Source of the DNA: Prosthecobacter sp.
GTDB taxonomy: Bacteria; Verrucomicrobiota; Verrucomicrobiia; Verrucomicrobiales; Verrucomicrobiaceae
DNA length: 40,742 nt
Reading direction: 5' to 3'
NCBI GenBank assembly: GCA_041688535.1
Contig: JBDNIB010000297.1
Location: 1 to 40,742, forward strand
The position numbers and the translations under genes are program-made. The notes under the pieces were generated by a model. That model searched no databases, was not told where the DNA came from, and saw only the letters and a program-made list of their open reading frames with translations. This document shows positions 1-40,742 of this stretch, piece after piece (positions within the stretch are counted from its first letter, which is position 1; the number at the start of each line of letters is the position of its first letter).

Positions 1-14
1 CGGACGGCGATCCC

Positions 15-581
15 GGCCCCACCGGCGAAACCGGCCCCGCTGGCATCAGCACCTTTGGTGCCGACGGCCCCACCGGCCCCGCCTGGCCGTTCGATCCCAC
101 CTATCAGACCTTTCCCCAGGGCGACGGCGCGCCCGGCCCCACCGGCCCCACCGGCCCCGATGGCGACCCCACCAAAACCGCCCTCCTGCCCACCACGCGC
201 GGCATCGTCGCGCTGCACGCGCTCGAAGGCGAGGAAGCACTTTTCAAGGACGTCATCACTCTACCGATTCCGCCGCACGGCTTCGCCAGCGCCGACGTCT
301 GCCACATCTTCCGCGAGTGCTGCGAGCCCGGCTCCCTCTTCGTTCAGTTCGCCCACCTCCCCGGCTGCCCCGCGTTGATTGGCACCAGCATCCGCGCCAC
401 CGCCGGCCGCCTCTGCGTGGACGTCCGCCTCCATCCCGCCCCCCGCCGCGAAGTCCTCGCCACCCTCACGATCTGCGGCATCCGCAAGGGCTTCGCCACC
501 GCCAAACTCATGCCCTGCACCCGCGCGCAAATGACCGCCAACAACCAATTCTACACCCGCGCCCATGTTCCGAGTTTGTAG
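15..581 (+). CDS. Collagen-like tail protein 1, 3' part (joins 40251..40742; about 352 aa total)
   Basis: Gly-X-Y repeats continue in frame from 40742 to position 15; C-terminus TRAQMTANNQFY matches paralogs 2 and 3; its stop TAG is part of a REP GTAG. Confidence 0.85.
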   Translation, partial: GPTGETGPAGISTFGADGPTGPAWPFDPTYQTFPQGDGAPGPTGPTGPDGDPTKTALLPTTRGIVALHALEGEEALFKDVITLPIPPHGFASADVCHIFRECCEPGSLFVQFAHLPGCPALIGTSIRATAGRLCVDVRLHPAPRREVLATLTICGIRKGFATAKLMPCTRAQMTANNQFYTRAHVPSL

Positions 582-641: not shown

Positions 642-869
642 TCAGCGCTGTGGTCTGGGGGGGGTGGGCGGAGTCTTCGCCTTTGCGATTTTTAGCCGGT
701 CAATCACTCCCTCCATTGTTACAGCGAGGGTGTCACCAGCGTTATTTTCCCATTTCCAAAGGGCGCGTGGAGAGACATCGAGGATGTTTGCCGCCTCGGC
801 TTGCGTCAGGCCGAGGCGGGCGCGGTGCATTTTGAGCGCGGCTGCAAATGATAGGCGGTCGAGCGACAT
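642..869 (-). CDS. XRE-family HTH transcriptional regulator
   Basis: LKMHRARLGLTQAEAANILDVSPRALWKWE motif; ATG 869 abuts the upstream stop. Confidence 0.8.
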   Translation of the reverse strand: MSLDRLSFAAALKMHRARLGLTQAEAANILDVSPRALWKWENNAGDTLAVTMEGVIDRLKIAKAKTPPTPPRPQR

Positions 870-870
870 G

Positions 871-1074
871 TCAGTGACGCAGGCCGACGTGGGCTGGTGT
901 GCAGGCAGGGGTGTTTTTTTCGGCATCCATTACCTCGGCCTGCGTGTAGGAACTGCCGCATCCGTCACACTCATACATTTCGCGGGCGCAAAAGGTCAGG
1001 TGTTTGTTGCCGTCGTGGTTTTTTCCGCAGGTGACTGCGGTGGTGGGCGTGGTTGCGTTTTTCGGTGTGTTCAT
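871..1074 (-). CDS. Small Cys-rich hypothetical protein
   Basis: ORF with CxxC; middle gene of a minus-strand trio. Confidence 0.55.
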   Translation of the reverse strand: MNTPKNATTPTTAVTCGKNHDGNKHLTFCAREMYECDGCGSSYTQAEVMDAEKNTPACTPAHVGLRH

Positions 1075-1098
1075 TGGTTTTTTTTGTGTGGGGTGTTA

Positions 1099-1359
1099 TT
1101 AGCGGGTGCGGAGTTGGTATTGGCGGCCGGCGGCGGGGCACATCGGAGCATCTTCGATCCAGCCCTCGGACTGCGCCGCTTCGGCTTGCCCGTCTTCGGT
1201 TGCGGCGAAGCGGGACTGGAGTTCATCGAGGACGCTATCAGCGCGCGAGTCGCTCATGTTGATCGGCATCTTGCCGAGGACCGCTTTGACGCCATGGCTC
1301 GCGTGGCTGCCGAGTCCGAGTTTGCGAGTGAGTTGGGTGATTTGTGCTTCGTTCTTCAT
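1099..1359 (-). CDS. Hypothetical protein (moron, probably leaderless)
   Basis: ATG 1359 lies 6 nt after a -10-like hexamer. Confidence 0.6.
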   Translation of the reverse strand: MKNEAQITQLTRKLGLGSHASHGVKAVLGKMPINMSDSRADSVLDELQSRFAATEDGQAEAAQSEGWIEDAPMCPAAGRQYQLRTR

Positions 1360-1365
1360 GGGTTG

Positions 1366-1418
1366 ACATTCGCGCATTGTGCGAAGCGGCGCAAGAACTA
1401 TTTTCGCACAATGTGCGA
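1366..1418 (-). promoter_or_regulatory. Promoter with two palindromic operators
   Basis: TCGCGCA-T-TGTGCGA (1370-1384) and TCGCACA-A-TGTGCGA (1404-1418); minus-strand TTGCGC-17-GAATGT. Confidence 0.65.
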
Positions 1419-1425
1419 TTTGCCT

Positions 1426-1481
1426 CCCAGCTCCCCGCCCCAAGCCCCAAGCTCCCTGCCCCATGCCCCATGCCCCATGCC
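1426..1481 (+). repeat. Heptamer tandem repeat (CCA[A/T]GC[C/T]-like, 8 units)
   Basis: Direct reading; same family at 7608-7649 and 33591-33611. Confidence 0.85.
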
Positions 1482-1514
1482 CGCCCCGGCGGCCGCGCAT
1501 AACCCCACCCCACC

Positions 1515-2591
1515 GTGCCCCTAGCCCCGCCCAGCCCCAGCTACCGTTTTCGCCGCACGCGCGGACTGCTGCGCATGCGCGACCTCGCGGCCTTCCTCAC
1601 CTGGCTCGCCCCTCGCCTCGGCTTCCGCCTCGCCTCCGACGAATTCACCCGCGTCTCAGAGAGCGGCGGCCGCCTCACCATCTCCCGCGACCGCCCCGGC
1701 CCCATCGGTCCGCGTGGCCTCACCGGCCTCACCGGCGCGGACGGCCTCACCGGCGCGGACGGCCCCCCCGGTGCCAACGGCGGCGTTTTCCCCGGCCCCG
1801 CCGGCCCCGCCGGCCCCGCTGGCCCGCTCGGTCCCACCGGCGAGCGCGGAGATCGTGGCCCCAAGGGTCCCAAGGGGCCGCAGGGGCTGCTCAAAGGTCC
1901 GCAGGGACCCATCGGCCCCGCGCAAACAGCCCCCGGCCCCGACGGCCCCATCGGCGATCCCGGCCCGAATAAAGGCCCGCCTGGCAACCTCGGCCCAAAC
2001 GGTCCCCCTGGAGCCGATGCCGGACCAGCCCCCGCTGGCCCCCCCGGCGATTACGGCGATTCAAACTACACCTATTTCGGCGACGAATACGCCGCCCCCG
2101 GCGCCCCCGGCCCCACCGGCGAACCCGGCGACAAATTCGCCATCATGCCCGTCTCGTCTTCGTTCGTAGTCCCGCCTTCAGGCGGTCCGGCTTCTTCGTT
2201 CGTAGTTCCGCCTTCAGGCGGTCCGGCCTCCGCGTTCGTCGGCCTCTACGCCATCGAGGCCCCCGATGTGATCTTCGAGTCCGTCCTCCGCCTCACCCTC
2301 CCGCCCCGCACCCGGCAGCACATCCTCCTCCTCGATCCCCGCTACCTCCACGCCGTCGAGTGCGACACCCTCCACCTCACCAGCGTCGTCAGCTCCCTGC
2401 CCATCCCCATCCGCGCCACGCTCAACGCCGCCGGCATCGTCCTGGCTCTCCCCTCGCAGCGGCTGCCCATCACCATCTGTCTCACCGTGCAGGCCATCCG
2501 GCGCGGCATGCGTGATCGCCGTTGGCAGACCTTCACGCCCGCGCAAATGCACGCCAACAACCAATTTTACGCCTGCGCCACTGCTGCCTGA
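1515..2591 (+). CDS. Collagen-like tail protein 2 (in-frame REP dimer)
   Basis: [10 protein letters not shown]-motif, GXY repeats, C-terminal [12 protein letters not shown]. Confidence 0.85.
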
Positions 2592-2593
2592 TC

Positions 2594-3670
2594 ATGCTCA
2601 TTTCGCCCAAGCCCAAGCCGTACAGACTGCGCAGCACGCGCGGTCTCGCGCTCATGAGTGATGCCATCGCCTACGTCCGGCATTTGTCGCAGCACCTCGG
2701 CACCTTCCGCATCGATTCCAGCGAAATCACCGCCAGCTCCGCCAGCGAATTCGGCGGCAGCATGGACATCACGCGCACCACTGATCGCCCCGGTCCCGTC
2801 GGCCCCCCCGGCCCCGCCGGCCCCCCCGGCCCCGCCGGCGATCCCGGTTTTTCCGGCCTCGGCGGTGCCGATTTTTTCGGCCCGGCCGGAGAAGCGGGAG
2901 AAGCCGGTCCAGCCGGCACTCTCCCCGGCGACAAGGGCCCCCTCGGCGCTACCGGCATCATCGGCGAAGACGGCGGCGCAGGCCCCATCGGTGCCGACGG
3001 CCCTATCGGCCCGCTCACCCCCGGCCCCACCGGCTATCCCGGTCCCAATTCCGGCGCGCTCGGCCCCGATGGCCTCACCGGCCCCACCGGCGCGGATGGC
3101 ATCGAGACCCCCGGAGCACCTGGCCCCCCCGGCCCCGCCCGCGATGTGTACGTCACGTACTCCCCCCTCGGCTCCAGCCCCGACGGCCCCCCCGGCCCCG
3201 CCGGCGCCAAACTAGCCATCATCGAAATCCCCGCGTTCGTAGTTCCGGCTTCAGCCGGTCCGGCCTCCCAGTTCGTAGTCCCGGCTTCAGCCGGTCCGGC
3301 CTCCCAGTTCGTCGCCTTCCACGTCGCCGAAAGCCCCCGCTGCATGTGGCTAGACCACCTCCACGCCGTCCTCCCCGCGCATCGCACGAGCCTCGAAATC
3401 CCCATCGATCCGCTCTGGCTCGAATGCCTCGACAGCGCCGAGTCCATCGAAATCCTCAGCCTCCACATCCACGGCGGCGACGTCACCGCAGAGCTCCGCG
3501 ATTCCTCCCGCATCATCCTGCACGCCACCTCTGCCACGCGCCATTCACGCGCCGCCGTCATCACCGTCGCCGGTATCGCGCGCGCTCACAGCGGCCGCCG
3601 CTTCCCGCAGTTCACCGCCGCGCAAGCGGCCCGCAACGCCGCTTTCTGGTCATCCTCACTCAACCATTAA
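2594..3670 (+). CDS. Collagen-like tail protein 3 (in-frame REP dimer)
   Basis: ATG 2594; [10 protein letters not shown]-motif, GXY repeats, C-terminal TAAQAARNAAFW. Confidence 0.85.
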   Translation: MLISPKPKPYRLRSTRGLALMSDAIAYVRHLSQHLGTFRIDSSEITASSASEFGGSMDITRTTDRPGPVGPPGPAGPPGPAGDPGFSGLGGADFFGPAGEAGEAGPAGTLPGDKGPLGATGIIGEDGGAGPIGADGPIGPLTPGPTGYPGPNSGALGPDGLTGPTGADGIETPGAPGPPGPARDVYVTYSPLGSSPDGPPGPAGAKLAIIEIPAFVVPASAGPASQFVVPASAGPASQFVAFHVAESPRCMWLDHLHAVLPAHRTSLEIPIDPLWLECLDSAESIEILSLHIHGGDVTAELRDSSRIILHATSATRHSRAAVITVAGIARAHSGRRFPQFTAAQAARNAAFWSSSLNH

Positions 3671-3686: not shown

Positions 3687-4253
3687 ATGCACTACCATTG
3701 GTTCAACCTCCCCGCATTGCTCACCCCCGCCGAATGCAACCGCGTGATCAAGCACGCGAAAAAAAACTACCCCGCGCAAGACGCAGTAGTCGGGCATGGA
3801 GCCTCCGCCCGCAGCGATAAAATGCGCACCAGCACCATCCGCTGGCTCAGCTACGGCGACCTCGATCTACTCTGGCTGCGCCTGCGTATCGAAGAAAAAA
3901 TCCTCATCGCCAACCGCGAAGGTTTCGGTTTCAACTTGCAGCCTTCATTCACCGAAATCCAATTCACCGAATACCACGGCGCATCCGGCGGCCATTACGA
4001 TTGGCACGAAGACAATTCCGCGCAAATCCGCAAGCCGATGGATCGCAAGCTCAGCTTCGTCATGCAACTTTCCGCCCCCAAAGACTACACCGGCGGCACC
4101 TTCGAATTGCAAGCCGATCCCCTCCCCGCCGCTGCCTACACGCAGCAGGGCGATGCCCTGCTCTTCCGCAGCGGTCTCAAACACCGCGTGCTCCCCGTCA
4201 CCAGCGGCACCCGCTACAGCCTCGTCACCTGGGTCCACGGCCCCCGTTCGTGA
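3687..4253 (+). CDS. 2OG-Fe(II) oxygenase (prolyl-4-hydroxylase/PKHD-like)
   Basis: YDWHED (HxD), RKLS, GG, HRVLPVTSGTRYSLVTW (distal His and RxS). Confidence 0.9.
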   Translation: MHYHWFNLPALLTPAECNRVIKHAKKNYPAQDAVVGHGASARSDKMRTSTIRWLSYGDLDLLWLRLRIEEKILIANREGFGFNLQPSFTEIQFTEYHGASGGHYDWHEDNSAQIRKPMDRKLSFVMQLSAPKDYTGGTFELQADPLPAAAYTQQGDALLFRSGLKHRVLPVTSGTRYSLVTWVHGPRS

Positions 4254-6640: not shown

Positions 6641-7075
6641 ATGAAACGCATCCTCCTCCTGCTTTGTTTTGTAGTCCCGGCTTTAGCCGGTCTGTCTCCC
6701 GCCGCCGACATCCAGCTCGGCGACAACGGCACCGTCACGCGCGATAGCATCGCACTCAACAACGTCTCTGATGCCCTCCTCAATCAGCAGCTCACCAGCC
6801 GCGAGTTCATGGATGCCATCAAAGCAAAATTCACCGCGCATGCCGCCGCCCTGGCCGCTGCGCAAACCGCGCAAACCAACGCCGAAGCAAAGCTCGAAAC
6901 TCTCATCGCAGGAGCCAAGCTAGCGATCAGCAAAAATACCAGCGCCGAACGCCTCGCCGCCGCTGCCGAAATGCTCGCGAAAGTTCAGGCCACCGCCGCC
7001 GACGCAGAGCGCGATGAACTGGAAAAACAAGCCGCTGAAATCGCCGCAAAAATCCAAGCCCTCCCCCGCCCATGA
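6641..7075 (+). CDS. Exported coiled-coil protein (possible i-spanin)
   Basis: Hydrophobic N-terminus (includes an in-frame REP), Ala-rich coil, in lysis cluster. Confidence 0.5.
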   Translation: MKRILLLLCFVVPALAGLSPAADIQLGDNGTVTRDSIALNNVSDALLNQQLTSREFMDAIKAKFTAHAAALAAAQTAQTNAEAKLETLIAGAKLAISKNTSAERLAAAAEMLAKVQATAADAERDELEKQAAEIAAKIQALPRP

Positions 7076-7560: not shown

Positions 7561-7607
7561 CCCCCCGTCTCCGTTCGTAGTTCGGGCTTCAGCCCGTCCG
7601 CTCCGCC

Positions 7608-7649
7608 CCAAGCTCCAAGCTCCAAGCTCCAAGCTCCAAGCCCCAAGCT
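7608..7649 (+). repeat. CCAAGCT heptamer tandem repeat x6
   Basis: Direct reading. Confidence 0.9.
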
Positions 7650-7652
7650 ATC

Positions 7653-7877
7653 ATGAAACGCACCAAACGCCTCTCCCTCTCCCTCGTCCTTGCCGCCGCC
7701 ACCCTCACCAGTTGCCAATCCCCCGCCGACACCGCCCGCCTCGGCACCCTCGCCGACCTCGCGATCACCTACAGCGCGCGCCGTGGCATCCTCACCGCCG
7801 CCGATGTCGAAGCCCTCCGCGCCGCCCAAGTCATCCTCCTCCCGCCCGTCACAGCCATGACCATCAGCGGCAAATAA
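7653..7877 (+). CDS. Small lipoprotein (possible o-spanin)
   Basis: Signal peptide with lipobox LTSC. Confidence 0.6.
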   Translation: MKRTKRLSLSLVLAAATLTSCQSPADTARLGTLADLAITYSARRGILTAADVEALRAAQVILLPPVTAMTISGK

Positions 7878-7980
7878 TCCGCCTTCCCCCGTTCGTAGTC
7901 CCGGCTTCAGCCGGTCCGAATTCCGAACTCCCAATCTGCGCCAATCTGCGAAATCTGCGGATTGACAATTGCCCTCCAGC

Positions 7981-8542: not shown

Positions 8543-8714
8543 CGTCACTCAGCCGTCACTCGCGCCCCCGGCCACTTGTTTTTCCAAGCAACAACTCGCC
8601 TTCGATTCTCGTAGGGGTCGCCACTGCTTGCTGGGTGGCTGCGGTGCGGATGGAGACTCGGAGAGGCTGGAAAAGACCTGAAAAGACTTGTTGAGCGTCA
8701 CTCAAACGGCACTC
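8543..8714. other. attP: core 8601-8623 is a tRNA 3' end (likely tRNA-Glu) with arm-type repeats
   Basis: TTCGATT-CTCGT-AGGGGTC-G-CCA; CG[T/G]CACTC pairs at 8543/8554 and 8696/8707 (11-nt spacing); GAAAAGAC x2 at 8670/8680; adjacent to integrase. Confidence 0.8.
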
Positions 8715-10095: not shown

Positions 10096-10109
10096 GGCAG
10101 GGGGCCGTT

Positions 10110-10394
10110 TTAGCGGCGGGGCTCTGTGGCTAAATCGGCGCGGCAGGTGGGGCACAGGGTGCAGGTATGTACGACGACGTTGCCGCACTGGCCGCAGAGC
10201 GAGACGCGGGCGTGTTTGGTGTCGGTGGCATAGGCTACTGCGAGCAGAAGGAAGCCTGCGGGGACGCCGGCGATCATGGGGACGAGTGCGAAGCAGGCGA
10301 CGGCGGCTAAGGTGAAGAAGCCGCTGACGAAGGTGCTGCCGCCGGTGCGGACTTTCCGCGTGATGCGGTAGGTGTAGATGGGGTCTGTATTCAT
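10110..10394 (-). CDS. Two-TM membrane protein with double zinc ribbon
   Basis: Hydrophobic pair followed by CGQC and CPTC; downstream of the repressor. Confidence 0.7.
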   Translation of the reverse strand: MNTDPIYTYRITRKVRTGGSTFVSGFFTLAAVACFALVPMIAGVPAGFLLLAVAYATDTKHARVSLCGQCGNVVVHTCTLCPTCRADLATEPRR

Positions 10395-10483
10395 CCGCAG
10401 ATTGGGAGTGGATTTGGAAGGATTTGTTGAGTGGCGGAGTGTATTTTAACCGGTGAAGGCGGCGGTGGCGTCGATGATGTTGG

Positions 10484-10933
10484 TTAGTCCTCGGTGCCGT
10501 TTTTGCTGGGGCGACGGTTTTTCTTGACAAATTGATAAGTGACATCTTTCCTCGGCGGTAGCGGCACGATATTGGCGGCGGGCGAGTAGTCCTCGGCAAC
10601 GAGGGCAATCTGCGATTCGTGCGTGTTTTTTAAAACACGAGAGGCGGCTAGACCTTCGCGCAGAGTGTTGGTGATCCATTCCTGCAGGCTGATGGCTTGA
10701 GATTTTGCGAGCGCGTCCATGCGCTGGTAGTCATCGATTGACAGCTCTGGCTTGAGGCTGATTTGACCGCGCATCATGTCGCTGATGATTTTTTCGGCGC
10801 TGCCGGTGATGGGGCGATTGGCGCTTAGCCAGCCCTTGACGGTGCTGAGTGAGACGTTGCAGCGGCTGGCGAGCCAGGCGCGAGGGTGATCGTGTTTATC
10901 GAGCCAGTCTTGGACATTTTCGGCGGTGAGCAT
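10484..10933 (-). CDS. CI-like HTH repressor
   Basis: PRAWLASRCNVSLSTVKGWLS HTH; divergent from the early operon; no LexA-type peptidase domain seen. Confidence 0.75.
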   Translation of the reverse strand: MLTAENVQDWLDKHDHPRAWLASRCNVSLSTVKGWLSANRPITGSAEKIISDMMRGQISLKPELSIDDYQRMDALAKSQAISLQEWITNTLREGLAASRVLKNTHESQIALVAEDYSPAANIVPLPPRKDVTYQFVKKNRRPSKNGTED

Positions 10934-11019
10934 GGCGGAGATTCGCGGGAAAGTAGCAAAATGCAAATTTTTTGGTTGCATGGTTGCAAAATGCATCCAA
11001 GTTGGTATCACAACATACC
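10934..11019. promoter_or_regulatory. Divergent lysis/lysogeny switch with operator repeats
   Basis: AT-rich; GTAGCAAAATGCAA (10953) and GTTGCAAAATGCAT (10983). Confidence 0.65.
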
Positions 11020-11175
11020 ATGACAGTCCAAATCACCATCACCCCAAACGATAGCCTGACGCAAGCGGAGCTGGAAGAGCTCTGCGAGAGAGCCGCAGAA
11101 AAAGGCAGAACGCCGGCCGAGTGGGCGGCGGCGGTGCTGAGAGCGGCCCTGATCGAGGAGCCGAAGGCTGCGTGA
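11020..11175 (+). CDS. Cro-position small DNA-binding protein (RHH-like)
   Basis: First early gene; beta-helix-helix pattern. Confidence 0.6.
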   Translation: MTVQITITPNDSLTQAELEELCERAAEKGRTPAEWAAAVLRAALIEEPKAA

Positions 11176-11247
11176 ATTTCAGACGGGCTGAAGCCCGAAC
11201 TACGAGCAACGAACCAACCAACCAACCAACACACGGAGGCAAACCGC

Positions 11248-12756: not shown

Positions 12757-13025
12757 AGCTTGTACCTTTGCCTGGGATCGCGATGGTGTTCCGCACGGAG
12801 GTGCAGGCGGGGCTGGCGCGCGACATCGAGCGGACTGCGTGGATGGATCAACACCTACCGTTTGAGCTGACGCGTGGGATGGGGCGGATTGCAGCGAACT
12901 GGGACCGCATCGCGGCGCAGTGGGCTGCCCAATTTGATCCGCAGATGCCGCAGATTGGGAAGGATTTTCGGAGGCATCAATCGGCGAAATCTGCGAAATC
13001 TGCGGACGAAAGGAGGGCGGTATGA
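12753..13025 (+). CDS. Hypothetical protein (C-terminus built from an AATCTGCG repeat)
   Basis: GGAGG RBS and ATGA overlaps at both ends. Confidence 0.6.
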   Translation: MKLVPLPGIAMVFRTEVQAGLARDIERTAWMDQHLPFELTRGMGRIAANWDRIAAQWAAQFDPQMPQIGKDFRRHQSAKSAKSADERRAV

Positions 13026-13693
13026 GCAATCGACTTTTTCGGGTGTCGTGCCCGGTGGAGCGGACGGTGCCGCGCCGGGTGCCGAGGTCGTGGAGACGGA
13101 CGGTGCTGGATGTGCTGGTGCTGCTGGCGCTGCTGCTGCTGGTGGCCTGGCTGTGCCGCTGCGTGGGAGCGGCGGCGGGGGCGAGTGGAGGCCAGCGGCT
13201 GGGGGCTGGCGGCTATGTGGTGGCGACGCTGGATCTGCGGCCGCTGATCGCGGCGGCGGTGGAGCATTGGTGGGGCTGGCTGGCGGCGGCGGGGCTGCTG
13301 GCGGTGCTGGTGGGGCTGGCGGAATGGCAGCAGCGGCGGCAGGCGGCGTTCGAGCTGGAGCTGGCAGCTTATGTGCGGCGGATCCGTGGGGGCGGTGCGC
13401 GGGGAGTCGGACCGGCTGAAGCCGGGACTACGAACGCGGAGGGAGTGCCGGCGGAGGATGTGGGGCGCATTTTGCGCGCGTGTGCAGAGGAGTCGAGGGC
13501 GGTGGTGGAGCTGGTGAGACGGGCGGCGGTGGCGATGTCGGAGGATTATTATGGGTCGCTCCAGCAGGCTGAGCGGAAGACTGCGGCGGTGATTTTGTGC
13601 ATTGAGAATTTGCTGGTGCGGCTGGATGCTGATCCGGACCGCCTGAAGGCGGGACTACGAACACGGCAGCCGGACGGGGAGGTGGTGTCGTGA
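13022..13693 (+). CDS. Membrane protein with two in-frame REPs
   Basis: Two TM segments; GPAEAGTTN and [10 protein letters not shown] peptides. Confidence 0.65.
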   Translation: MSNRLFRVSCPVERTVPRRVPRSWRRTVLDVLVLLALLLLVAWLCRCVGAAAGASGGQRLGAGGYVVATLDLRPLIAAAVEHWWGWLAAAGLLAVLVGLAEWQQRRQAAFELELAAYVRRIRGGGARGVGPAEAGTTNAEGVPAEDVGRILRACAEESRAVVELVRRAAVAMSEDYYGSLQQAERKTAAVILCIENLLVRLDADPDRLKAGLRTRQPDGEVVS

Positions 13694-14016: not shown

Positions 14017-14345
14017 GCGGCATGAAGCGGCTGGATGAGTGCCTGAGGCTGGTGCTGGCGAAGCTGGAGGGGATCGAGCAGCGGCTGCCGCAGGCGGCTG
14101 CGGCAACTACGTCAGCGGAGGATATGACGCGGCCGCTGTCGGCGTCTGAGCTGTGCGAGCGGTGGCATGTGACGGCGACGAATGCGGAACTGCAACTGCT
14201 GTATCTCGCGCGGCGGTGCCGCCAGTGGGGGCTGCGGCCGCTGCAGGGCGCGCGCTGCTGGAATGCGCTGTATGGCCGCGCGGAGGTGCTGCATGCGGAG
14301 AGTTTTGCGAGTGGGAAAATCAACCGGAGGAAACACGCGAGATGA
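14013..14345 (+). CDS. Possible excisionase-like winged-helix protein
   Basis: RPLSASELCERWHV motif; ATGA coupling. Confidence 0.45.
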   Translation: MSGMKRLDECLRLVLAKLEGIEQRLPQAAAATTSAEDMTRPLSASELCERWHVTATNAELQLLYLARRCRQWGLRPLQGARCWNALYGRAEVLHAESFASGKINRRKHAR

Positions 14346-14635
14346 ATTATAATGATGAGGCTGGAATGAAGCATGAGCCGGCCGGGCGGACGCGGCTGCG
14401 GCCGGGGAAATATCGGCTGTATTGTGCGGGGCCGACGGGTGTGATCATGGATCTGTGCATCGAGATCGCGACGCGGACGACGTTTGAACTGTCGCTGGAT
14501 GATGAGCTGCTGGCGGAGCTGCTGGTGGTGACGAGCCTGGGCTGCGGGGTGGTGGAGGGCGAGTTGCACAAGGCACAGCGCCCGGACCGCCTGAAGGCGG
14601 AACTACGAACACGGATGGGAGGGCCGGAGTTATGA
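14342..14635 (+). CDS. Hypothetical protein (in-frame REP)
   Basis: ATGA coupling, GGAGG RBS. Confidence 0.6.
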   Translation: MNYNDEAGMKHEPAGRTRLRPGKYRLYCAGPTGVIMDLCIEIATRTTFELSLDDELLAELLVVTSLGCGVVEGELHKAQRPDRLKAELRTRMGGPEL

Positions 14636-14967
14636 TGCTGCGTGCGCAGGTGGAGGTGGAGATCGCGGGGGTGGTGTGCGAGCACGAGGCGATGCGCGAA
14701 GCGCTGCATGAGATCGAGCGGCTGTTCCCTGGGGCGCATGAGCTGACGCTGGGAGTGCGGCAGGCGATGATCGGCGCGATGTCGCGGGTGAGTGGGATCC
14801 GGGTGCTGCTGGGGGCGGCGACGATGTGCGGGGAGCCGGACCGGCTGAAGCCGGGACTACAAAACGAAGAAGCGGACCGGCTGAAGCCGGGACTACGAAC
14901 GGCGATGCGGCTGTCGCTGCATCGGGCTGGGGATGATTTTTTGGATGAGAAGGAGGGCTATGAATGA
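14632..14967 (+). CDS. Hypothetical protein (in-frame REP dimer)
   Basis: ATGA coupling; PDRLKPGLQNEEADRLKPGLRT. Confidence 0.6.
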   Translation: MMLRAQVEVEIAGVVCEHEAMREALHEIERLFPGAHELTLGVRQAMIGAMSRVSGIRVLLGAATMCGEPDRLKPGLQNEEADRLKPGLRTAMRLSLHRAGDDFLDEKEGYE

Positions 14968-16795: not shown

Positions 16796-18725
16796 TTTTT
16801 TAAATGACAAACCAAAGACAAATATGAGCCAAGAACTATCGAAAACCGGGGACGTAAAAATCCAGTATATCAAGCAGGACGCGCTGCATGGCAGCCCGAC
16901 GAATCCGCGCAAACATTTCGCGGCGGAGCCGCTGGAGGAACTGAGCCGGAGCATCGAGGAGCATGGGATCCAGATGCCGCTGCTGTGCCGCGTGTCGCCG
17001 CATGAGGAAGGCAAATTTGAGATCGTGGCGGGTGAACGCCGCTGGCGTGCCAATGGGCTGCTGCTGGAGCGCCTGGCTAGCGCTGGGCGCGATGAGATGT
17101 ATGAGCGGCGGCTGCTGCTGCCGGTGATCCTGCGCGTGCTAGACGATGCAACGGTGCTGGAGCTGCAATTGATCGAGAATCTGCAACGGACGGACCTGAC
17201 TGCGTTGGAGGAGGCCGCTGGGTATCAGGCATTGCTGGACCTGCCAGGGAAGGCGTACACGCCAACGATCATCGCGCAAAGAGTGAGCAAAAACGTGCAA
17301 ACGGTGCGGAACAAACTCCGAATGCTCGGCGCGCCGCAGGTGCTGCAGGATGCGCTGGCGGATGCGCTGGCGGGGATCAGCCCGCTGCATCTGGTGCTGG
17401 TGTCCAAGGTCGCGGGTGCGCAAAATCGCGAGCAGTGCGCGCGCGAAATCATGCAGGGTGAGTTTGATTATGAGCTGCAAAAAAAAGTGCCGATGTCCGC
17501 CCGCGAAACTGCGGTGCATATCACGGAAAAATACCGGCGGCCGCTCAAGGGGGTGGCGTGGGATCTGGCGGATGCGGAGCTGGTGCCGGAAGCGGGGGCG
17601 TGTGTGACGTGTCCGCACTTCGCGCAGCACGCGGCGACGCAGGATGAAGAGCTGGCTGCAGAGCTGGGCGGTGCGCGCGGGCAAACACAACCGCTCACGT
17701 GTATGGATCCGGCGTGCCACCAGCGCAAGCAAGCGGCGGCATTTCGGCGGTGTGAAGCGGCGGCGAAAGAAGGGGTGGTGACAGTGATGAAACCGAAGGA
17801 GGCGGCGGCGATCATGAGCGCGTCGGGCATCATGCACTGGAACGCAAAATGGGTGAAGCTAGACGACAAGCCGGGCCATGCAGTGACCGGACACTACGAT
17901 GCCAGCAAGCTGCCGACCTGGCGCGTGCTGATAGGTGACAGGCTGCCGCCTGGCGCGCTTACAGTGGCGAACACAGAGCTGGGCGGGATCATCGAGCTGG
18001 TGCTGCTGGCGGATGCGATGACGGCGGCGCAGGGCGATGCGACACACGGCGAGCTGTTCCAAAAAATGCCGCCGAGCGGGAAGAAGGAGCTGACGGAAGA
18101 ACAGGCCAAACAGAAAGAAAAGGAAGTGTTTGCGGGGAAGGTGATGGCGCGGGAGAAAAACTGCCTGCTGCAGCATTTGTTCGATAGCGCGATGGCGAAG
18201 GGGCTGGATGCCGATGGCGGCCTGGCGGTGCTGGATTGCCTGCTGCATGAGGCGGGCATGGAGGGCAATCGGCTGATCTGTAGCTGGCAGAAGCTGGAGC
18301 CTGCGGCGGTCAAAAAAGGCGACGAGCTGAGCCAGGGACACTATCGCGCGGCGATCATGACGAGCCTGCGGGCGCGTGATGCAGGCAAGCCGGAGATCGA
18401 CGCGATGATCATGATCGCTGGTCTGGCCAAATGGGTGAAGGTCTATGGTCAAAGCATCAGCAGCCTGGGATCGCTGCAGGAGTATTTCGGCTTTGATAAG
18501 CGCACGATCACGGCGCTGGCGACGGCTGAGGTGCGGGCTGAAATGGCGGCGAAGGCGGCGAAGAAAAAGCCAGCGGTAGCGGTGAAAAATAACAGCGTGG
18601 ACCCGGTGGAGGTGAGTGCGGAGAAGGAGGCGGGAAAAACGGCGGCGGCGGATGCACGAGCGAAAGATGGGGACGGGCTGAAGCCCGAACTACGAACGAA
18701 GAAAACGAAAGTAACACAATCATGA
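16788..18725 (+). CDS. ParB/RepB/Spo0J-family protein
   Basis: NPRKHF, GERRWRA, ENLQRTDL, HTH, Cys cluster; in-frame REP at C-terminus. Confidence 0.9.
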   Translation: MTDFLNDKPKTNMSQELSKTGDVKIQYIKQDALHGSPTNPRKHFAAEPLEELSRSIEEHGIQMPLLCRVSPHEEGKFEIVAGERRWRANGLLLERLASAGRDEMYERRLLLPVILRVLDDATVLELQLIENLQRTDLTALEEAAGYQALLDLPGKAYTPTIIAQRVSKNVQTVRNKLRMLGAPQVLQDALADALAGISPLHLVLVSKVAGAQNREQCAREIMQGEFDYELQKKVPMSARETAVHITEKYRRPLKGVAWDLADAELVPEAGACVTCPHFAQHAATQDEELAAELGGARGQTQPLTCMDPACHQRKQAAAFRRCEAAAKEGVVTVMKPKEAAAIMSASGIMHWNAKWVKLDDKPGHAVTGHYDASKLPTWRVLIGDRLPPGALTVANTELGGIIELVLLADAMTAAQGDATHGELFQKMPPSGKKELTEEQAKQKEKEVFAGKVMAREKNCLLQHLFDSAMAKGLDADGGLAVLDCLLHEAGMEGNRLICSWQKLEPAAVKKGDELSQGHYRAAIMTSLRARDAGKPEIDAMIMIAGLAKWVKVYGQSISSLGSLQEYFGFDKRTITALATAEVRAEMAAKAAKKKPAVAVKNNSVDPVEVSAEKEAGKTAAADARAKDGDGLKPELRTKKTKVTQS

Positions 18726-22242: not shown

Positions 22243-22412
22243 TAGCGAGCGCGGCCGCCGAAGCAAGGCGTGGACCAATCACGGGCCGTGCTCTGGCCGC
22301 GTGATGCGGTCGCGGGCCGTAGCGTGTAGCGCGGCCGCCTCTGCTCTAGGAGCACGGCATGTGCGGCAGCATCAGCGCATCGCGCTGGACAGATCTCCGG
22401 TTCGGGGTGCGC

Positions 22413-22620
22413 CCTCCCGCGCCCTCCCGACCTCCTGTTTTTGTTAGGTCAGGGGGCGCAACCTCCCCGACCTATGGGGGAAATTGAGGAATTGACCGCG
22501 TTTAGATTTCGGCGGATGCCATTGACCTCCCCGACCTATGGGCAAGAGGATAGCACCTGTAGCGGCTGGAAGCCTTGATTTACCAAGGATTTTGGGAGGT
22601 AAGGGAGGTAAGGGAGGTAT
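22413..22620. other. Candidate replication origin (iterons)
   Basis: ACCTCCCCGACCTATGGG at 22461 and 22525; inverted GGGAGGTA x3 at 22594-22620; non-coding, directly after primase/helicase; near skew switch. Confidence 0.65.
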
Positions 22621-22814
22621 TTGGAAGTCCGGTCTTTTGCTCTGTCGGTGGTGATAGCTAGCCGAGTGGCTGGAAATGTCCCATGCACCTCCAAAAGCTA
22701 GCTGCTGGCGGCGAAAAAAAGGAATCTTTTAGCCTCGTTCTGAGTCTCAGGCGGGATTATCGTCCCTGCCCCTTTTTTTGAGCGCGCCCCCAAATTGCAA
22801 AATGACACTTTGAA

Positions 22815-22836
22815 TTGACACTTGCCAAGATTGATG
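22815..22836 (+). promoter_or_regulatory. TTGACA-N13-start motif (representative of 10 late copies)
   Basis: Also at 4626, 7962, 25663, 25910, 31097 (13 nt to ATG/GTG) and 28899, 29528, 33624, 37337 (longer leaders). Confidence 0.75.
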
Positions 22837-28818: not shown

Positions 28819-28945
28819 CCGTTCGTAGTTCCGGCTTCAGCCGGTCCGGTTTCCCCGTTCGTAGTTCGGGCTTCAGCCCGTCCGCCTCCCCCGTTCGTTT
28901 GACACCCCGCCCCCATCGCCGCAGTCACCTCTACCTCCCCTCTCC

Positions 28946-32810: not shown

Positions 32811-33563
32811 ATGAAACAACTTCCACCCGCGCCGTATTATGACCGCGACGGCATCACTCTTTACCACGGCAACTGCCGCGAGATACTACCGCACCTGCAG
32901 CCCGTTGACGCCGCCGTCACCGACCCGCCCTACAACGAAACTAATCTTGAATGGGACACCTGGCCTGTCGGCTGGCCTTCGCTGCTCGCGCCACTGACCA
33001 ACTCGTTTTGGTGTTTCGGCTCGTTGCGGATGTTCTGGGATCGGCGCGATGAGTTTGGCGCGTGGAAACTTGCGCAGGACATCGTTTGGGAAAAACACAA
33101 TGGCAGCGGGATTGCCTCAGATCGGTTCCGCCGCGTGCATGAACTGGCGGTTCATCTTTATCAGGGGGATTGGGCGGCGCTCCATAAGGCCGTCCCGCGC
33201 GTTGGCGAGCATCGCGCCACAAAGATGATGCAACGCGGCAAGACGCCCCACCTCGGAACAAAAGGACAACTTGGAATACAAGAGGGCCAAAAGCTCATGC
33301 GCTCAGTCATCTACGCCAACAGTTGTCAGGGCTACGCAGTCAACGAAACGCAAAAACCGGAGGCGCTGATTTCGCCCCTGCTGGAATATTGCGTTCCTCC
33401 CGGCGGCAGCGTGCTGGATTGCTTTGCTGGTAGTGGCACCGTGCTCGCCGTCGCGCGCGCTCAGGGGAAGCGCGCCATCGGCATTGAGCAGCGCGAAAGC
33501 CAATGCATCGAGATCGTCAAGCGGCTCTCACAAGGCGATCTTTTTCAGGATCCCCGTTCGTAG
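32811..33563 (+). CDS. Beta-class N6-A/N4-C DNA methyltransferase
   Basis: TDPPY, TQKP, VLDCFAGSGT; bounded by 41-bp REP direct repeats. Confidence 0.9.
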   Translation: MKQLPPAPYYDRDGITLYHGNCREILPHLQPVDAAVTDPPYNETNLEWDTWPVGWPSLLAPLTNSFWCFGSLRMFWDRRDEFGAWKLAQDIVWEKHNGSGIASDRFRRVHELAVHLYQGDWAALHKAVPRVGEHRATKMMQRGKTPHLGTKGQLGIQEGQKLMRSVIYANSCQGYAVNETQKPEALISPLLEYCVPPGGSVLDCFAGSGTVLAVARAQGKRAIGIEQRESQCIEIVKRLSQGDLFQDPRS

Positions 33564-33659
33564 TCCCGGCTTCAGCCGGTCCGGTCAGCCCCATGCCCCA
33601 CGCCCCATGCCCCCCGCCCTCATTTGACACGCCCCCTCCATCGTCACACCGCCTCACCC

Positions 33660-34791: not shown

Positions 34792-34849
34792 CGTCTCCCC
34801 CGTATTGTAGTCCCGGCTTCAGCCGGTCCGACTCTCCCCGCCTAACACC

Positions 34850-35958: not shown

Positions 35959-36198
35959 ATGTCCGCCAAACACTCCGCCCCGCCTTCTTCGTTCGTAGTT
36001 CCGGCTTCAGCCGGTCCGCTTCCCCTCACACTCCCATCTGGTTCTGCCTTCTGGCTGCTCTTCGAGCACATGAGCCGGCAGCACAATTTATCGCTGCTCG
36101 ACTCCGAGCTCGCCGATGTCTGCGCCGCCGTCGATCAGATGCGCGCGGCATGGGAGGCTAACGCGCTGCACAACCAACTCCCCGCCGCGCCCCTTTAA
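35959..36198 (+). CDS. Hypothetical protein (in-frame REP)
   Basis: SSFVVPASAGP peptide. Confidence 0.55.
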   Translation: MSAKHSAPPSSFVVPASAGPLPLTLPSGSAFWLLFEHMSRQHNLSLLDSELADVCAAVDQMRAAWEANALHNQLPAAPL

Positions 36199-39340: not shown

Positions 39341-40254
39341 TGGACCCCTACATTCAGCACGGCAGCCCCAATCTCGCATTGCCAGACCAGCGTTTTGCCC
39401 AGCGCTCGCGCGAGCTCGACACCATCGCAATCTCCTTCCAAGATGAGAGCGCGACTGTCTATCCCGTCGGCTCTATCCTCGCCGACTACCCCGGCATGCC
39501 CATCGTCGAACGCGAACGCAACAAAGAGGGGCCGGTCTATCAATACCGCCTGCAGCTCGAAGGTATCGCCGATCCCGCTCAGATTTATGTCGAGACTGAC
39601 TACGGCGAGTCGTCGCCCGAAGAAGGCTTCGATGAAATCCGCCGCTCCATCATCACGCAGCAGCCATCCCACGCCTGGTTCATCAAGGGTGCGCAGTTGC
39701 GCAGCGAGCTGACGAATCTCGTGTTGCCAGGCTATGAAAATATGTATGTCGTTGACCGCGATCAGCACAAGCATCGCGCCGCTGGCTACTACGAGGTCGG
39801 GCTTGCGCTCAAGGGCATGCTTGGCACCAAGGTAGCCAAGCGCCGCATCAATACCAGCGGTCAGGCCGTCTCCGCCCGCGTGCAGGGGCTGCACAACATC
39901 GGCGGCACTGTTTACCTCGGCTATCCTCCCGTTGCGATTGGCAGCGCCAATCTCGCTACAGTAGATGAGCAGCAGATCGAATACGACATCCCCGGTATCT
40001 CAGTGTCAGATTCTCTCTTGACCACGGTCGAGCCGCCGAATGTGATGATCGGGCAATTTTGGAACCCATCGAATCCGCCCGCCGTTGGCGGTATCACTCT
40101 GCTCGGCGAGGCGTACACCTATCACATCCCGTACGGCTGGAAATGCACCAGCCTGCAGTCTGAAAAGCTGGCCGGAGCAGACGTTTGGTTCGTGAATATC
40201 ACCTGGGCCTATCAGCGCGAAACCACCCCGCGCGATGCCGATCCTGCGCCATGA
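39340..40254 (+). CDS. Distal tail/baseplate hub protein
   Basis: Directly after TMP (TAATG overlap). Confidence 0.55.
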
Positions 40255-40742
40255 TCGCCGCCCGCCCGCCGCAGACCTATCGCCTGCGCAGCACGCGCGG
40301 GCTGGCGACGCTGCGCGACCTCTGGCGGCTCGTCACCTGGCTCGCCGATCGCACCGGTCAGGAGGTCAGTGCGGATGGCGTCACGCGCATGCGCGAGACC
40401 AACACTGGCGTCCATCTGGTGTGGTCCGACTCCGGCCCCATCGGCCCCATTGGCCCCATCGGCCTCTCTGGCGGCGCTGGCGTGCTCGGTCCCACCGGGA
40501 GCAGCGGCGTGCCTGGCACCCCCGCGTCTGGCCCTGCGCCGGTCGGCCCGCCCGGCCCCGCCGGTCCCACTGGCGGCAAGGGCGTCACCGGCAATCCCGG
40601 AGCCGATGGCCTGCAGGGTGATCAAGGCGATGCCTCTATCGTCGTCGGCGATCCCGGCGATCCCGGCGCGCCCGGCCCCGCTGGCCCGCGTGGTCCCGAT
40701 GGCCCGACGGGCAGCCCCAACCCCGGCGCGGACGGCGATCCC
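40251..40742 (+). CDS. Collagen-like tail protein 1, 5' part (continues at 15)
   Basis: ATGA coupling; YRLRSTRGL motif; GXY repeats running off the end. Confidence 0.85.

What the first reader, a model, noticed from the sequence alone, without database searches (positions are those of the whole stretch)
2155..3312. REP units insert in frame in proteins, independently at the same loop of two collagen paralogs
Seen: paralog 1 reads KTALLPTTRGIVALHALE. At the same position paralog 2 carries 2x36 nt of the CCGCCT variant ([11 protein letters not shown]) and paralog 3 carries 2x36 nt of the CCGGCT variant (FVVPASAGPAS), each ending in a duplicated GTTCGT. Twelve copies are in frame genome-wide (also 6671, 13408, 13635, 14583, 14837, 14873, 18670, 35995) and two supply stop codons (579, 33561). 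Coding dimers always have a 36-nt period, while the intergenic array also has 35. Inference: a roughly 36-nt unit targeting TTCGT/TTGT adds 12-aa peptides, analogous to Rickettsia palindromic elements but in a phage.
Basis: partly seen in the sequence, partly recalled or inferred. Interest (0 to 1): 0.78.

Follow-up and report, generated by a model that had tools for sequence, protein, structure and literature searches.

The report
Host REP repeats colonising phage genes
A temperate phage carries 32 copies of its host's tiny hairpin repeat, all with the same strand polarity and twelve of them in frame in protein loops and ends, likely pasted in by a host transposase: a known kind of repeat in an unusual place.

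Summary
Collagen paralogs 2 and 3 each carry two in-frame copies at the same predicted beta-hairpin turn, and homologs show 0, 1 and 2 copies in both paralogs. The repeat is a GTAG-tagged REP of the host (a Verrucomicrobiaceae bin): 114 copies lie outside the phage, and the cognate RAYT transposase sits beside alaS. Half of the host clusters (36 of 71) also lie in long ORFs, and coding GTAG REPs were described in Verrucomicrobia in 2013, so the kind is known. What is unusual: 37 times the host density, no inverted doublets (0 of 21 against 39 of 71), and strict polarity. All 21 clusters put the GTAG strand on the C-rich strand whatever the gene direction, as do 64 of 70 clusters in other phage contigs. 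This scan noted coding REPs, and one REP-laden prophage, on other DNA before.

The parts
1515..2591 (+). Collagen fibre-like paralog 2 (358 aa); REP dimer in the first turn of the C-terminal domain
2166..2221 (+). Head-to-tail REP dimer (cores 2166-2185, 2202-2221), CCGCC/GGCGG stem, +24 aa against empty orthologs
2594..3670 (+). Collagen fibre-like paralog 3 (358 aa)
3239..3294 (+). Head-to-tail REP dimer (cores 3239-3258, 3275-3294), CCGGC/GCCGG stem, +23 aa against the G153 ortholog
1..581 (+). 3' part of paralog 1, empty at the turn; its 5' part is 40212-40742 across the circular join; the REP at 578-597 supplies its TAG stop
6671..6690 (+). Single REP coding part of a signal-peptide-like N-terminus (ORF 6641-7075); empty homolog P0157, about +5 aa
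9892..10089 (-). Intergenic array of six head-to-tail REPs, periods 36/35/36/35/36
13412..13658 (-). Two single REPs (13412, 13639) read antisense in frame in ORF 13022-13693, which has REP-free homologs in four related phages
14587..14606 (-). Single REP; 36-nt (12-aa) gain near the C-terminus of ORF 14342-14635 against the G095 phage, no flanking TTCGT repeat
14841..14896 (-). REP dimer in frame in ORF 14632-14967 (ORF without a found relative)
18674..18693 (-). Single REP in the ParB tail; replaces a look-alike peptide with about +2 aa
35995..36014 (+). Single REP in ORF 35959-36198; two copies in the sister phage G155
33560..33579 (+). REP supplying the TAG stop of a DNA methyltransferase gene
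28825..28880 (+). Intergenic dimer after the head protease gene; the second stem is another variant in sister phage G155
32733..32788 (+). Intergenic dimer; collapsed to one hybrid copy in sister phage G155
4563..4582 (+). Intergenic single REP at a site that also holds a REP in the distant G095 phage
11184..11203 (-). Single REP at a site probably shared with the G095 phage
7577..7914 (+). Two intergenic singles (7577, 7895), 17 and 18 nt after stop codons; further non-coding copies at 34807, 35640 and 36456/36492
8601..8624 (+). attP core, identical to the 3' end of tRNA-Glu(TTC) of same-genus genomes; G/C skew and REP polarity flip here (skew minimum 8610)
22243..22821 (.). Non-coding stretch with short direct repeats after the replication genes; skew maximum 22678, the second polarity switch; origin-like by inference

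Best explanation
The repeats are copies of the host's GTAG-tagged REP family that have accumulated in a temperate phage, likely pasted in trans by the host's RAYT transposase, and the peptides they encode are probably tolerated passengers. Shown: same repeat in host and phage, a RAYT gene flanked by it beside alaS, no such gene in the phage, an attP matching the host genus, empty/one/two-copy alleles. Inferred steps: (1) RAYT cuts and rejoins single-stranded REP DNA and delivers single units, with variable flanks, on one strand only, so that the GTAG strand ends on the C-rich strand; (2) selection removes copies that break frames or folds, leaving those in intergenic gaps, stop codons, termini, signal peptides and turns, which is why both collagen paralogs show them at the family's most indel-tolerant turn; (3) head-to-tail copies then expand, collapse and swap stem variants by slippage or recombination in steps of about 36 nt.
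For: Host origin: 114 copies outside the phage contig, 6 of 12 same-genus genomes and 0 of 8 other genera of the order, PVC-labelled records. Transposase: a 199-205 aa HUH protein flanked by these REPs downstream of alaS in 4 of 5 loci fetched, a GGAG-variant locus in the fifth; NF047646 at 77-83 bits, 2 of 4 scanned above the cut-off of 80; its first 49 codons follow alaS and a REP pair in the own bin, cut by the contig end; no NF047646 or PF01797 match on the phage contig. Host link: 23-nt attP equals the tRNA-Glu 3' end in 3 of 3 same-genus genomes. Alleles: paralog 2 empty (P0003, P0004, G153, G154, G095), single (P0002), double (P0001, window); paralog 3 empty (G153, G095, P0008), single (P0055), double (window); nesting in separate clades. 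Tolerance: two-residue turn between strands 5-10 and 13-18 in the empty model, low-confidence loop in the filled one; 19 and 29 of 155 rows have insertions of 3 aa or more at model positions 10 and 14; only 9 of 21 clusters are coding against 87.5% coding DNA (P 1.4e-6) and none is in eight core genes (P 8e-4). Turnover: exact 36-nt gain, hybrid collapse and stem swap in sister phage G155. Polarity: 21 of 21 phage, 26 of 32 host, 64 of 70 other phage clusters.
Against: No activity of this RAYT was tested and the own copy is truncated by the assembly. No pre-insertion DNA close enough to fix a junction was obtained for paralogs 2 and 3. No consistent cleavage or duplication register was found. 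Published work holds that inverted doublets are the mobile unit and singlets are remnants (PMC3116915, passages), which conflicts with step 1. The polarity could come from a preference for C-rich target sequence (CCCCG 154 against 11 between the strands) and not from replication. Two sites shared with the distant G095 phage and the REP kept in a 70% identical signal peptide show long persistence, which neutrality does not predict outright.
Confidence: 0.65

Rival explanations
1. Inverted doublets (REPINs) insert as in the host, and in the phage the arm of the disfavoured polarity is then removed (strand-specific RAYT cutting or hairpin instability during phage replication), leaving singles of one polarity.
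For: 39 of 71 host clusters and 15 of 88 clusters in other viral contigs are inverted; doublets as the replicative unit and singlets as remnants in PMC3116915 (passages); only the REP strand, not its complement, is bound and cut (PMC8266576, passages); variable net gains fit imprecise loss.
Against: No decayed partner within 120 nt of any of the 32 copies (best chance matches 5-7 mismatches); phage singles are not decayed (31 of 32 perfect stems); no doublet allele among the homologs of any coding site examined.
Confidence: 0.25
2. The two collagen insertions are one event: a REP entered one paralog and was copied to the matching site of the other by short ectopic recombination.
For: Same turn, same frame, similar 3' flank (27 of 36 nt by eye); stem variants swap easily between sister phages, so the different stems do not prove independence.
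Against: Flanks stay paralog-specific up to both junctions; the turn is the family's main indel site; the same domain took REPs at two other sites in other phages (G154 p3, P0006, P0031).
Confidence: 0.3
3. One reading: a fixed 36-nt unit targets TTCGT/TTGT, duplicates it and adds 12 aa each time.
For: GTTCGT at exactly +36 after three dimers; +12 aa in P0002 and at 14587; the nearest empty paralog 2 allele already has Phe at the junction (P0004).
Against: 18 of 21 phage clusters and 32 of 32 host unpaired clusters lack the repeat at +36; gains of 2, 5 and 13 aa; TTCGT (35 against 27) and TTGT (70 against 104) cannot give the 21 of 21 polarity; the trailing GTTCGT is also the common leader of every unit.
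Confidence: 0.12
4. The copies are kept for a function: RNA hairpins after stop codons that tune late transcripts, or peptides that alter the fibre tips.
For: Eight non-coding clusters begin 5-46 nt after a stop and two supply it; other palindromes fill the same intergenic slot in related phages; old shared sites.
Against: Closely organised relatives carry 0-2 copies; orientation follows the skew and not the gene direction; the stem is weak (z -1.1 to -2.2 for single units); copy number differs between near-identical phages.
Confidence: 0.12

Closest known systems
GTAG-tagged REPs with RAYT/TnpA-REP, including the intragenic GTAG-17/18/19 REPs of Opitutus terrae (Di Nocera 2013, PMC3733652)
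   Same: GTAG at the foot of a short hairpin, a flanking RAYT, in-frame copies in genes (UvrA in both), TAG stops supplied by the tag, head-tail dimers, same phylum.
   Different: Another sequence family (its peptides were not found in the four supplementary files searched; the consensus figure could not be seen); here in a phage, at 37 times host density, never as inverted doublets, with strict strand polarity. The word phage does not occur in that paper's main text.
REPINs of Pseudomonas fluorescens (Bertels and Rainey 2011, PMC3116915)
   Same: The host clusters are mostly inverted doublets beside a RAYT.
   Different: The phage has 0 of 21 inverted clusters, and its singles are intact and polymorphic.
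E. coli REP/BIME and TnpA-REP (Ton-Hoang 2012, PMC3333891; Corneloup 2021, PMC8266576)
   Same: Single-strand cutting and joining offers a route to tandem amplification and variable linkers; the Marinomonas group 3 REP has the same build (5-bp stem, 2 nt from GTAG).
   Different: BIME units are REP plus inverted REP; here the unit is one REP plus spacer, and no CT register was found.
Rickettsia palindromic elements (RPE)
   Same: Repeat-coded peptides inside proteins.
   Different: RPE-4 and RPE-6 are CGTC-tagged and RPE-1 is longer (PMC3733652); this is a 20-nt GTAG core with a RAYT. An analogy, not membership.
IS200/IS605 single-strand transposition (IS608)
   Same: HUH transposase family; a strand-polarised distribution.
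   Different: No autonomous element here; which strand is the lagging template in this phage is unresolved.

Membership tests
GTAG-tagged REP | 5' GTAG tetranucleotide at the foot of a short palindrome | tested here: met
   32 of 32 copies; 31 of 32 perfect 5-bp stems with compensatory changes
GTAG-tagged REP | Many dispersed copies in a bacterial genome | tested here: met
   114 copies outside the phage contig; 6 of 12 same-genus genomes
GTAG-tagged REP | Copies flank a RAYT gene | tested here: met
   (2 of 4 above the NF047646 cut-off, 2 just below); 5' end of the same gene in the own bin
GTAG-tagged REP | Bound and cut by the cognate RAYT on single-stranded DNA | not testable with these tools
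   needs an in vitro assay
GTAG-tagged REP | Mostly extragenic | tested here: inconclusive
   12 of 21 phage clusters are non-coding or at a stop, but 36 of 71 host clusters lie in long open frames
REPIN | Two REPs in inverted orientation forming one hairpin | tested here: not met
   0 of 21 phage clusters against 39 of 71 host clusters, P 1.5e-6; no decayed partner
BIME | Tandem arrays of REP plus inverted REP | tested here: not met
   the six-copy array and all dimers are head-to-tail
O. terrae GTAG-17/18/19 | Same repeat sequence or coded peptides | tested here: inconclusive
   VVPPSG, VVRASAR and GTAGTCCCG absent from four supplementary files; GTAG-18 codes the look-alike VGPALAAG; Figure 1 not visible
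Rickettsia palindromic elements | In-frame insertion into protein genes with empty homologs | tested here: met
Rickettsia palindromic elements | CGTC tag (RPE-4/6) or long palindrome (RPE-1) | tested here: not met
   20-nt GTAG-tagged core; RPE description from PMC3733652
MITE-type element with target duplication | Constant target-site duplication | tested here: not met
   3 of 21 phage clusters, 0 of 32 host unpaired clusters at +36
IS200/IS605-type single-strand element | Active strand on the lagging-strand template | tested here: inconclusive
   polarity is strict, but the origin (attP side or 22.2-22.8 kb) and so the fork direction are not fixed

The most novel reading that the evidence does not exclude
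In these Verrucomicrobia phages the single REP, not the inverted doublet, is the live mobile unit: the host RAYT writes it onto one defined strand of replicating phage DNA, sometimes inserting and sometimes overwriting look-alike coding sequence, so that REP-laden phages diversify fibre tips, signal peptides and linkers, carry the repeat family across the PVC phyla, and give a fast in vivo assay for REP movement.
Probability: 0.3. Interest if true: 0.8.

Novelty: new variant of a known kind. Interest (0 to 1): 0.52.

Why it matters
How REPs spread is described as unresolved in the 2021 biochemical paper (PMC8266576, passages). A 41-kb replicon with 32 copies, a known cognate transposase, 0/1/2-copy alleles and a strict strand rule gives sharp predictions (which strand, which unit, which junction) that a bacterial chromosome blurs. 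It also shows a host repeat writing peptides into predicted virion proteins. The coding insertions alone are a known phenomenon; the polarity and the lack of doublets are what a specialist would notice.

Tried and rejected
Rfam and tRNA scans of the window: no match. Cultured phage records: no match to the array. Host PF01797 hits and 30 such loci from five relatives: no REP beside them; the two best own hits are IS200-type; the cognate gene was found only by looking between REP clusters. Paralog 2 profile against GTDB contigs: nothing. Relatives of ORF 14632-14967 in viral contigs: none. Sequencing runs: no RNA holder listed, which says nothing on expression. A more distant contig in run X5 differs around the paralog 3 spacer, but the copy number could not be read. 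Fold searches for the C-terminal domain: no Foldseek match at E 0.001 and best Z 6.5 (tailspike domains, within the common range), no Pfam family, so no function is assigned. A fixed direct-repeat period around the clusters: 3-5 of 21 at each of 35-39 nt, no peak. The ParB homolog's look-alike peptide as a decayed REP: not favoured, since it has no hairpin and runs on into its own tail, but not excluded. Fork direction from a complete relative: two rRNA operons lie on the G-rich strand, the third is at an unsampled switch and dnaA is not at a switch, so undecided. The MAFFT pair alignment of the 14587 site misplaced the gap; the 36-nt gain is read from the printed sequences. Six literature searches listed no paper on REPs in phage genomes or on REP polarity against skew; the library lacks most subscription papers.

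Full report
WHAT THE WINDOW IS. The window is contig C759 of a 5.37-Mb, 72% complete bin. Its ends overlap by 14 nt, and a sister phage holds the split collagen gene as one frame, so it is a circular genome. It encodes an integrase, two ParB-like proteins, primase, terminase, portal, head protease, major head protein, tape measure and three collagen fibre-like paralogs. A 23-nt stretch at 8601 equals the 3' end of tRNA-Glu in 3 of 3 same-genus genomes, so the phage is temperate in this genus. The bin's best protein identities to labelled records (80-94%) are mostly to Verrucomicrobiales, Verrucomicrobiaceae and Prosthecobacter records; the genus name is my inference.

THE OBSERVATION. There are 32 copies in 21 clusters of a 20-nt core: GTAG, two bases, a 5-bp stem and a 4-nt loop. 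Shuffles give 0 matches in 100, and 31 of 32 stems are perfect with both-arm changes at two positions. Contigs of runs X3 and X4 bridge the paralog 2 dimer without a difference (X3 may belong to the source campaign).

EMPTY ALLELES AND THE LOOP. Paralog 2 has empty (P0003, P0004, G153, G154, G095), single (P0002) and double (P0001, window) alleles; paralog 3 has empty (G153, G095, P0008), single (P0055) and double (window) alleles. In a tree of 43 domains built without the loop (P0014 skipped), the three filled paralog 2 rows nest among 12 rows and the two filled paralog 3 rows among 14, each with full support, so the paralogs split long before the insertions and at least two events are needed. 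An empty allele folds with a two-residue turn between strands 5-10 and 13-18 (mean pLDDT 91); the filled allele keeps both strands and adds a low-confidence loop. The domain family has 1,290 clusters. Among 115 rows that cover the loop, 72 have the short form, and insertions of 3 aa or more fall at model positions 10 and 14 in 19 and 29 of 155 rows, the next site having 21. The shared site is thus the most tolerant place in the domain. Four of the best 150 hits carry REP peptides, two of them at other sites, as does G154 paralog 3. One insertion copied between paralogs is not excluded.

THE UNIT IS NOT A FIXED 12-AA CASSETTE. GTTCGT recurs one period downstream in 3 of 21 phage clusters, all dimers, and 0 of 32 unpaired host clusters. 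Gains are 12 aa (P0002; site 14587 against G095, read from the printed sequences), 13 aa (P0055), about 5 aa (signal peptide, P0157 against the window) and about 2 aa in ParB, where DGLKPELRTK stands opposite the REP-free GLTPDQRTK. The 36-nt period is the default (6 of 8 non-coding intervals). The sister phage G155 has one more exact unit at 35995, one hybrid copy in place of the 32733 dimer and a swapped stem at 28861, which points to slippage or recombination between neighbours.

SOURCE. The rest of the bin has 114 copies in 71 clusters; 36 of 71 lie in frames open for 100 codons on both sides (a mechanical count, some may be shadow frames), including two doublets in UvrA. The pattern occurs in 6 of 12 same-genus genomes and none of 8 from other genera, and in Verrucomicrobiota, Planctomycetota and Lentisphaerae records (80 of 91 loci listed). 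Looking between REP clusters found a RAYT gene after alaS in four relatives and a variant locus in a fifth; in the own bin its first 49 codons follow alaS and a REP pair at a contig end. The phage encodes no such protein.

WHAT IS UNUSUAL. Density is 0.79 per kb against 0.021 in the host, 37-fold; related phages carry 0 (G153, G049 first 60 kb, L020), 1 (G154), 2 (G095) or, in the sister, 11 in 19.7 kb. No phage cluster is inverted, against 39 of 71 in the host (P 1.5e-6). All 21 clusters put the GTAG strand on the C-rich strand: plus from 28.8 kb round to 7.9 kb, minus from 9.9 to 18.7 kb, although the genes there all run on the plus strand. The skew flips at attP (8610) and at 22678, with fourfold sites 67% G in early genes and 49-68% C in late genes. 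Host unpaired clusters follow the rule in 26 of 32. In IMG/VR, 80 of 103 stretches were fetched: 88 clusters on 41 contigs, 15 inverted; after dropping three contigs related to this phage, 64 of 70 unpaired clusters and 28 of 32 contigs follow it, and three contigs carry ten clusters each (several contigs are near duplicates, so these are not independent). TTCGT and TTGT cannot explain the polarity, but C-rich words such as CCCCG (154 against 11) could, so replication and target preference remain rivals. Selection is visible: 9 of 21 clusters are coding against 87.5% coding DNA, none in eight core genes.

MECHANISM. Most likely the host RAYT, an HUH enzyme that cuts and rejoins single-stranded REP DNA in a strand-specific way (PMC3333891, PMC8266576, passages), deposits single units on one strand of the phage; selection keeps those in gaps, stops, termini and turns; neighbours then duplicate and collapse. 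The transposase step and neutrality are inferred; source, alleles, polarity and turnover are shown. The main rival is insertion of doublets followed by loss of one arm.

WHAT IS KNOWN. PMC3733652 (passages, section 15 whole, part 1 of 3 of supplementary file 3, a search of four files; figures not seen) reports many intragenic GTAG REPs in Opitutus terrae, including both uvrA genes, and TAG stops supplied by REPs; this family's peptides were not found there. PMC6006769 (passages) reports in-frame REPs inside RAYT genes. PMC3116915 (passages) treats singlets as remnants. PMC3686654 (passages) describes stem-variant switches. Six searches listed no paper on REPs in phage genomes or their polarity. 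Earlier notes of this scan report coding REPs in other Verrucomicrobia and one REP-bearing prophage; none covers this genome or sequence.

VERDICT. Real, and a new variant of a known kind. The coding insertions are ordinary for this host group; the density, the lack of doublets and the strand rule in phages are the part worth following.

Noticed in passing
window 8610 and 22678; G095, G153, G154, G049 phage contigs: Extreme G/C strand asymmetry that flips at attP and after the replication genes although all genes run one way (fourfold sites 67% G early, up to 68% C late). Related phages show the same G-rich early and C-rich late pattern, and G095 has the same attP at its minimum. Could reflect replication in place from an origin near 22.2-22.8 kb.
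   Followed up: partly
window 165-578, 2124-2588, 3200-3667: The C-terminal domain of the collagen paralogs is a confidently predicted beta domain with a C-terminal helix, has 1,290 clusters, no Pfam family and no clear solved match (best Z 6.5 to tailspike domains).
   Followed up: partly
L247, L208, L200 (IMGVR 3300032315_001592); L274, L276 (3300006805_000034); L268 (3300020036_006038): Other REP-laden phage contigs: several in-frame copies in the linkers of giant proteins, beside other recurring peptides that look repeat-coded, and a four-copy 36-nt array.
   Followed up: partly
G153 after the protease gene; G049 after the integrase and after the portal gene: A different perfect palindrome with a CGACACGTGTCG core fills intergenic slots that hold REPs in the window; it may be the short cross-phylum palindrome of earlier notes, not checked.
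   Followed up: no
window 1429-1482, 7608-7649, 33588-33619: Heptamer tandem repeats on the C-rich strand, two of them directly behind REP copies.
   Followed up: no
window 32814-33563 and L171 about 10100-11080: The sister phage has a different methyltransferase (38% identity over 76 aa) in the same slot between the same two REP sites, suggesting cassette exchange at REPs.
   Followed up: no
window 642-1500: A small reverse-strand insert with an HTH regulator separates paralogs 1 and 2; in the related phages the two genes are adjacent.
   Followed up: no
window 3687-4253: 2OG-Fe(II) oxygenase directly after paralog 3, conserved at 47-84% in five relatives; a candidate prolyl hydroxylase for the collagen repeats by inference.
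   Followed up: no
L303 150-260 (G000:C943): In the host a REP supplies the stop codon of alaS, just ahead of the RAYT gene.
   Followed up: yes
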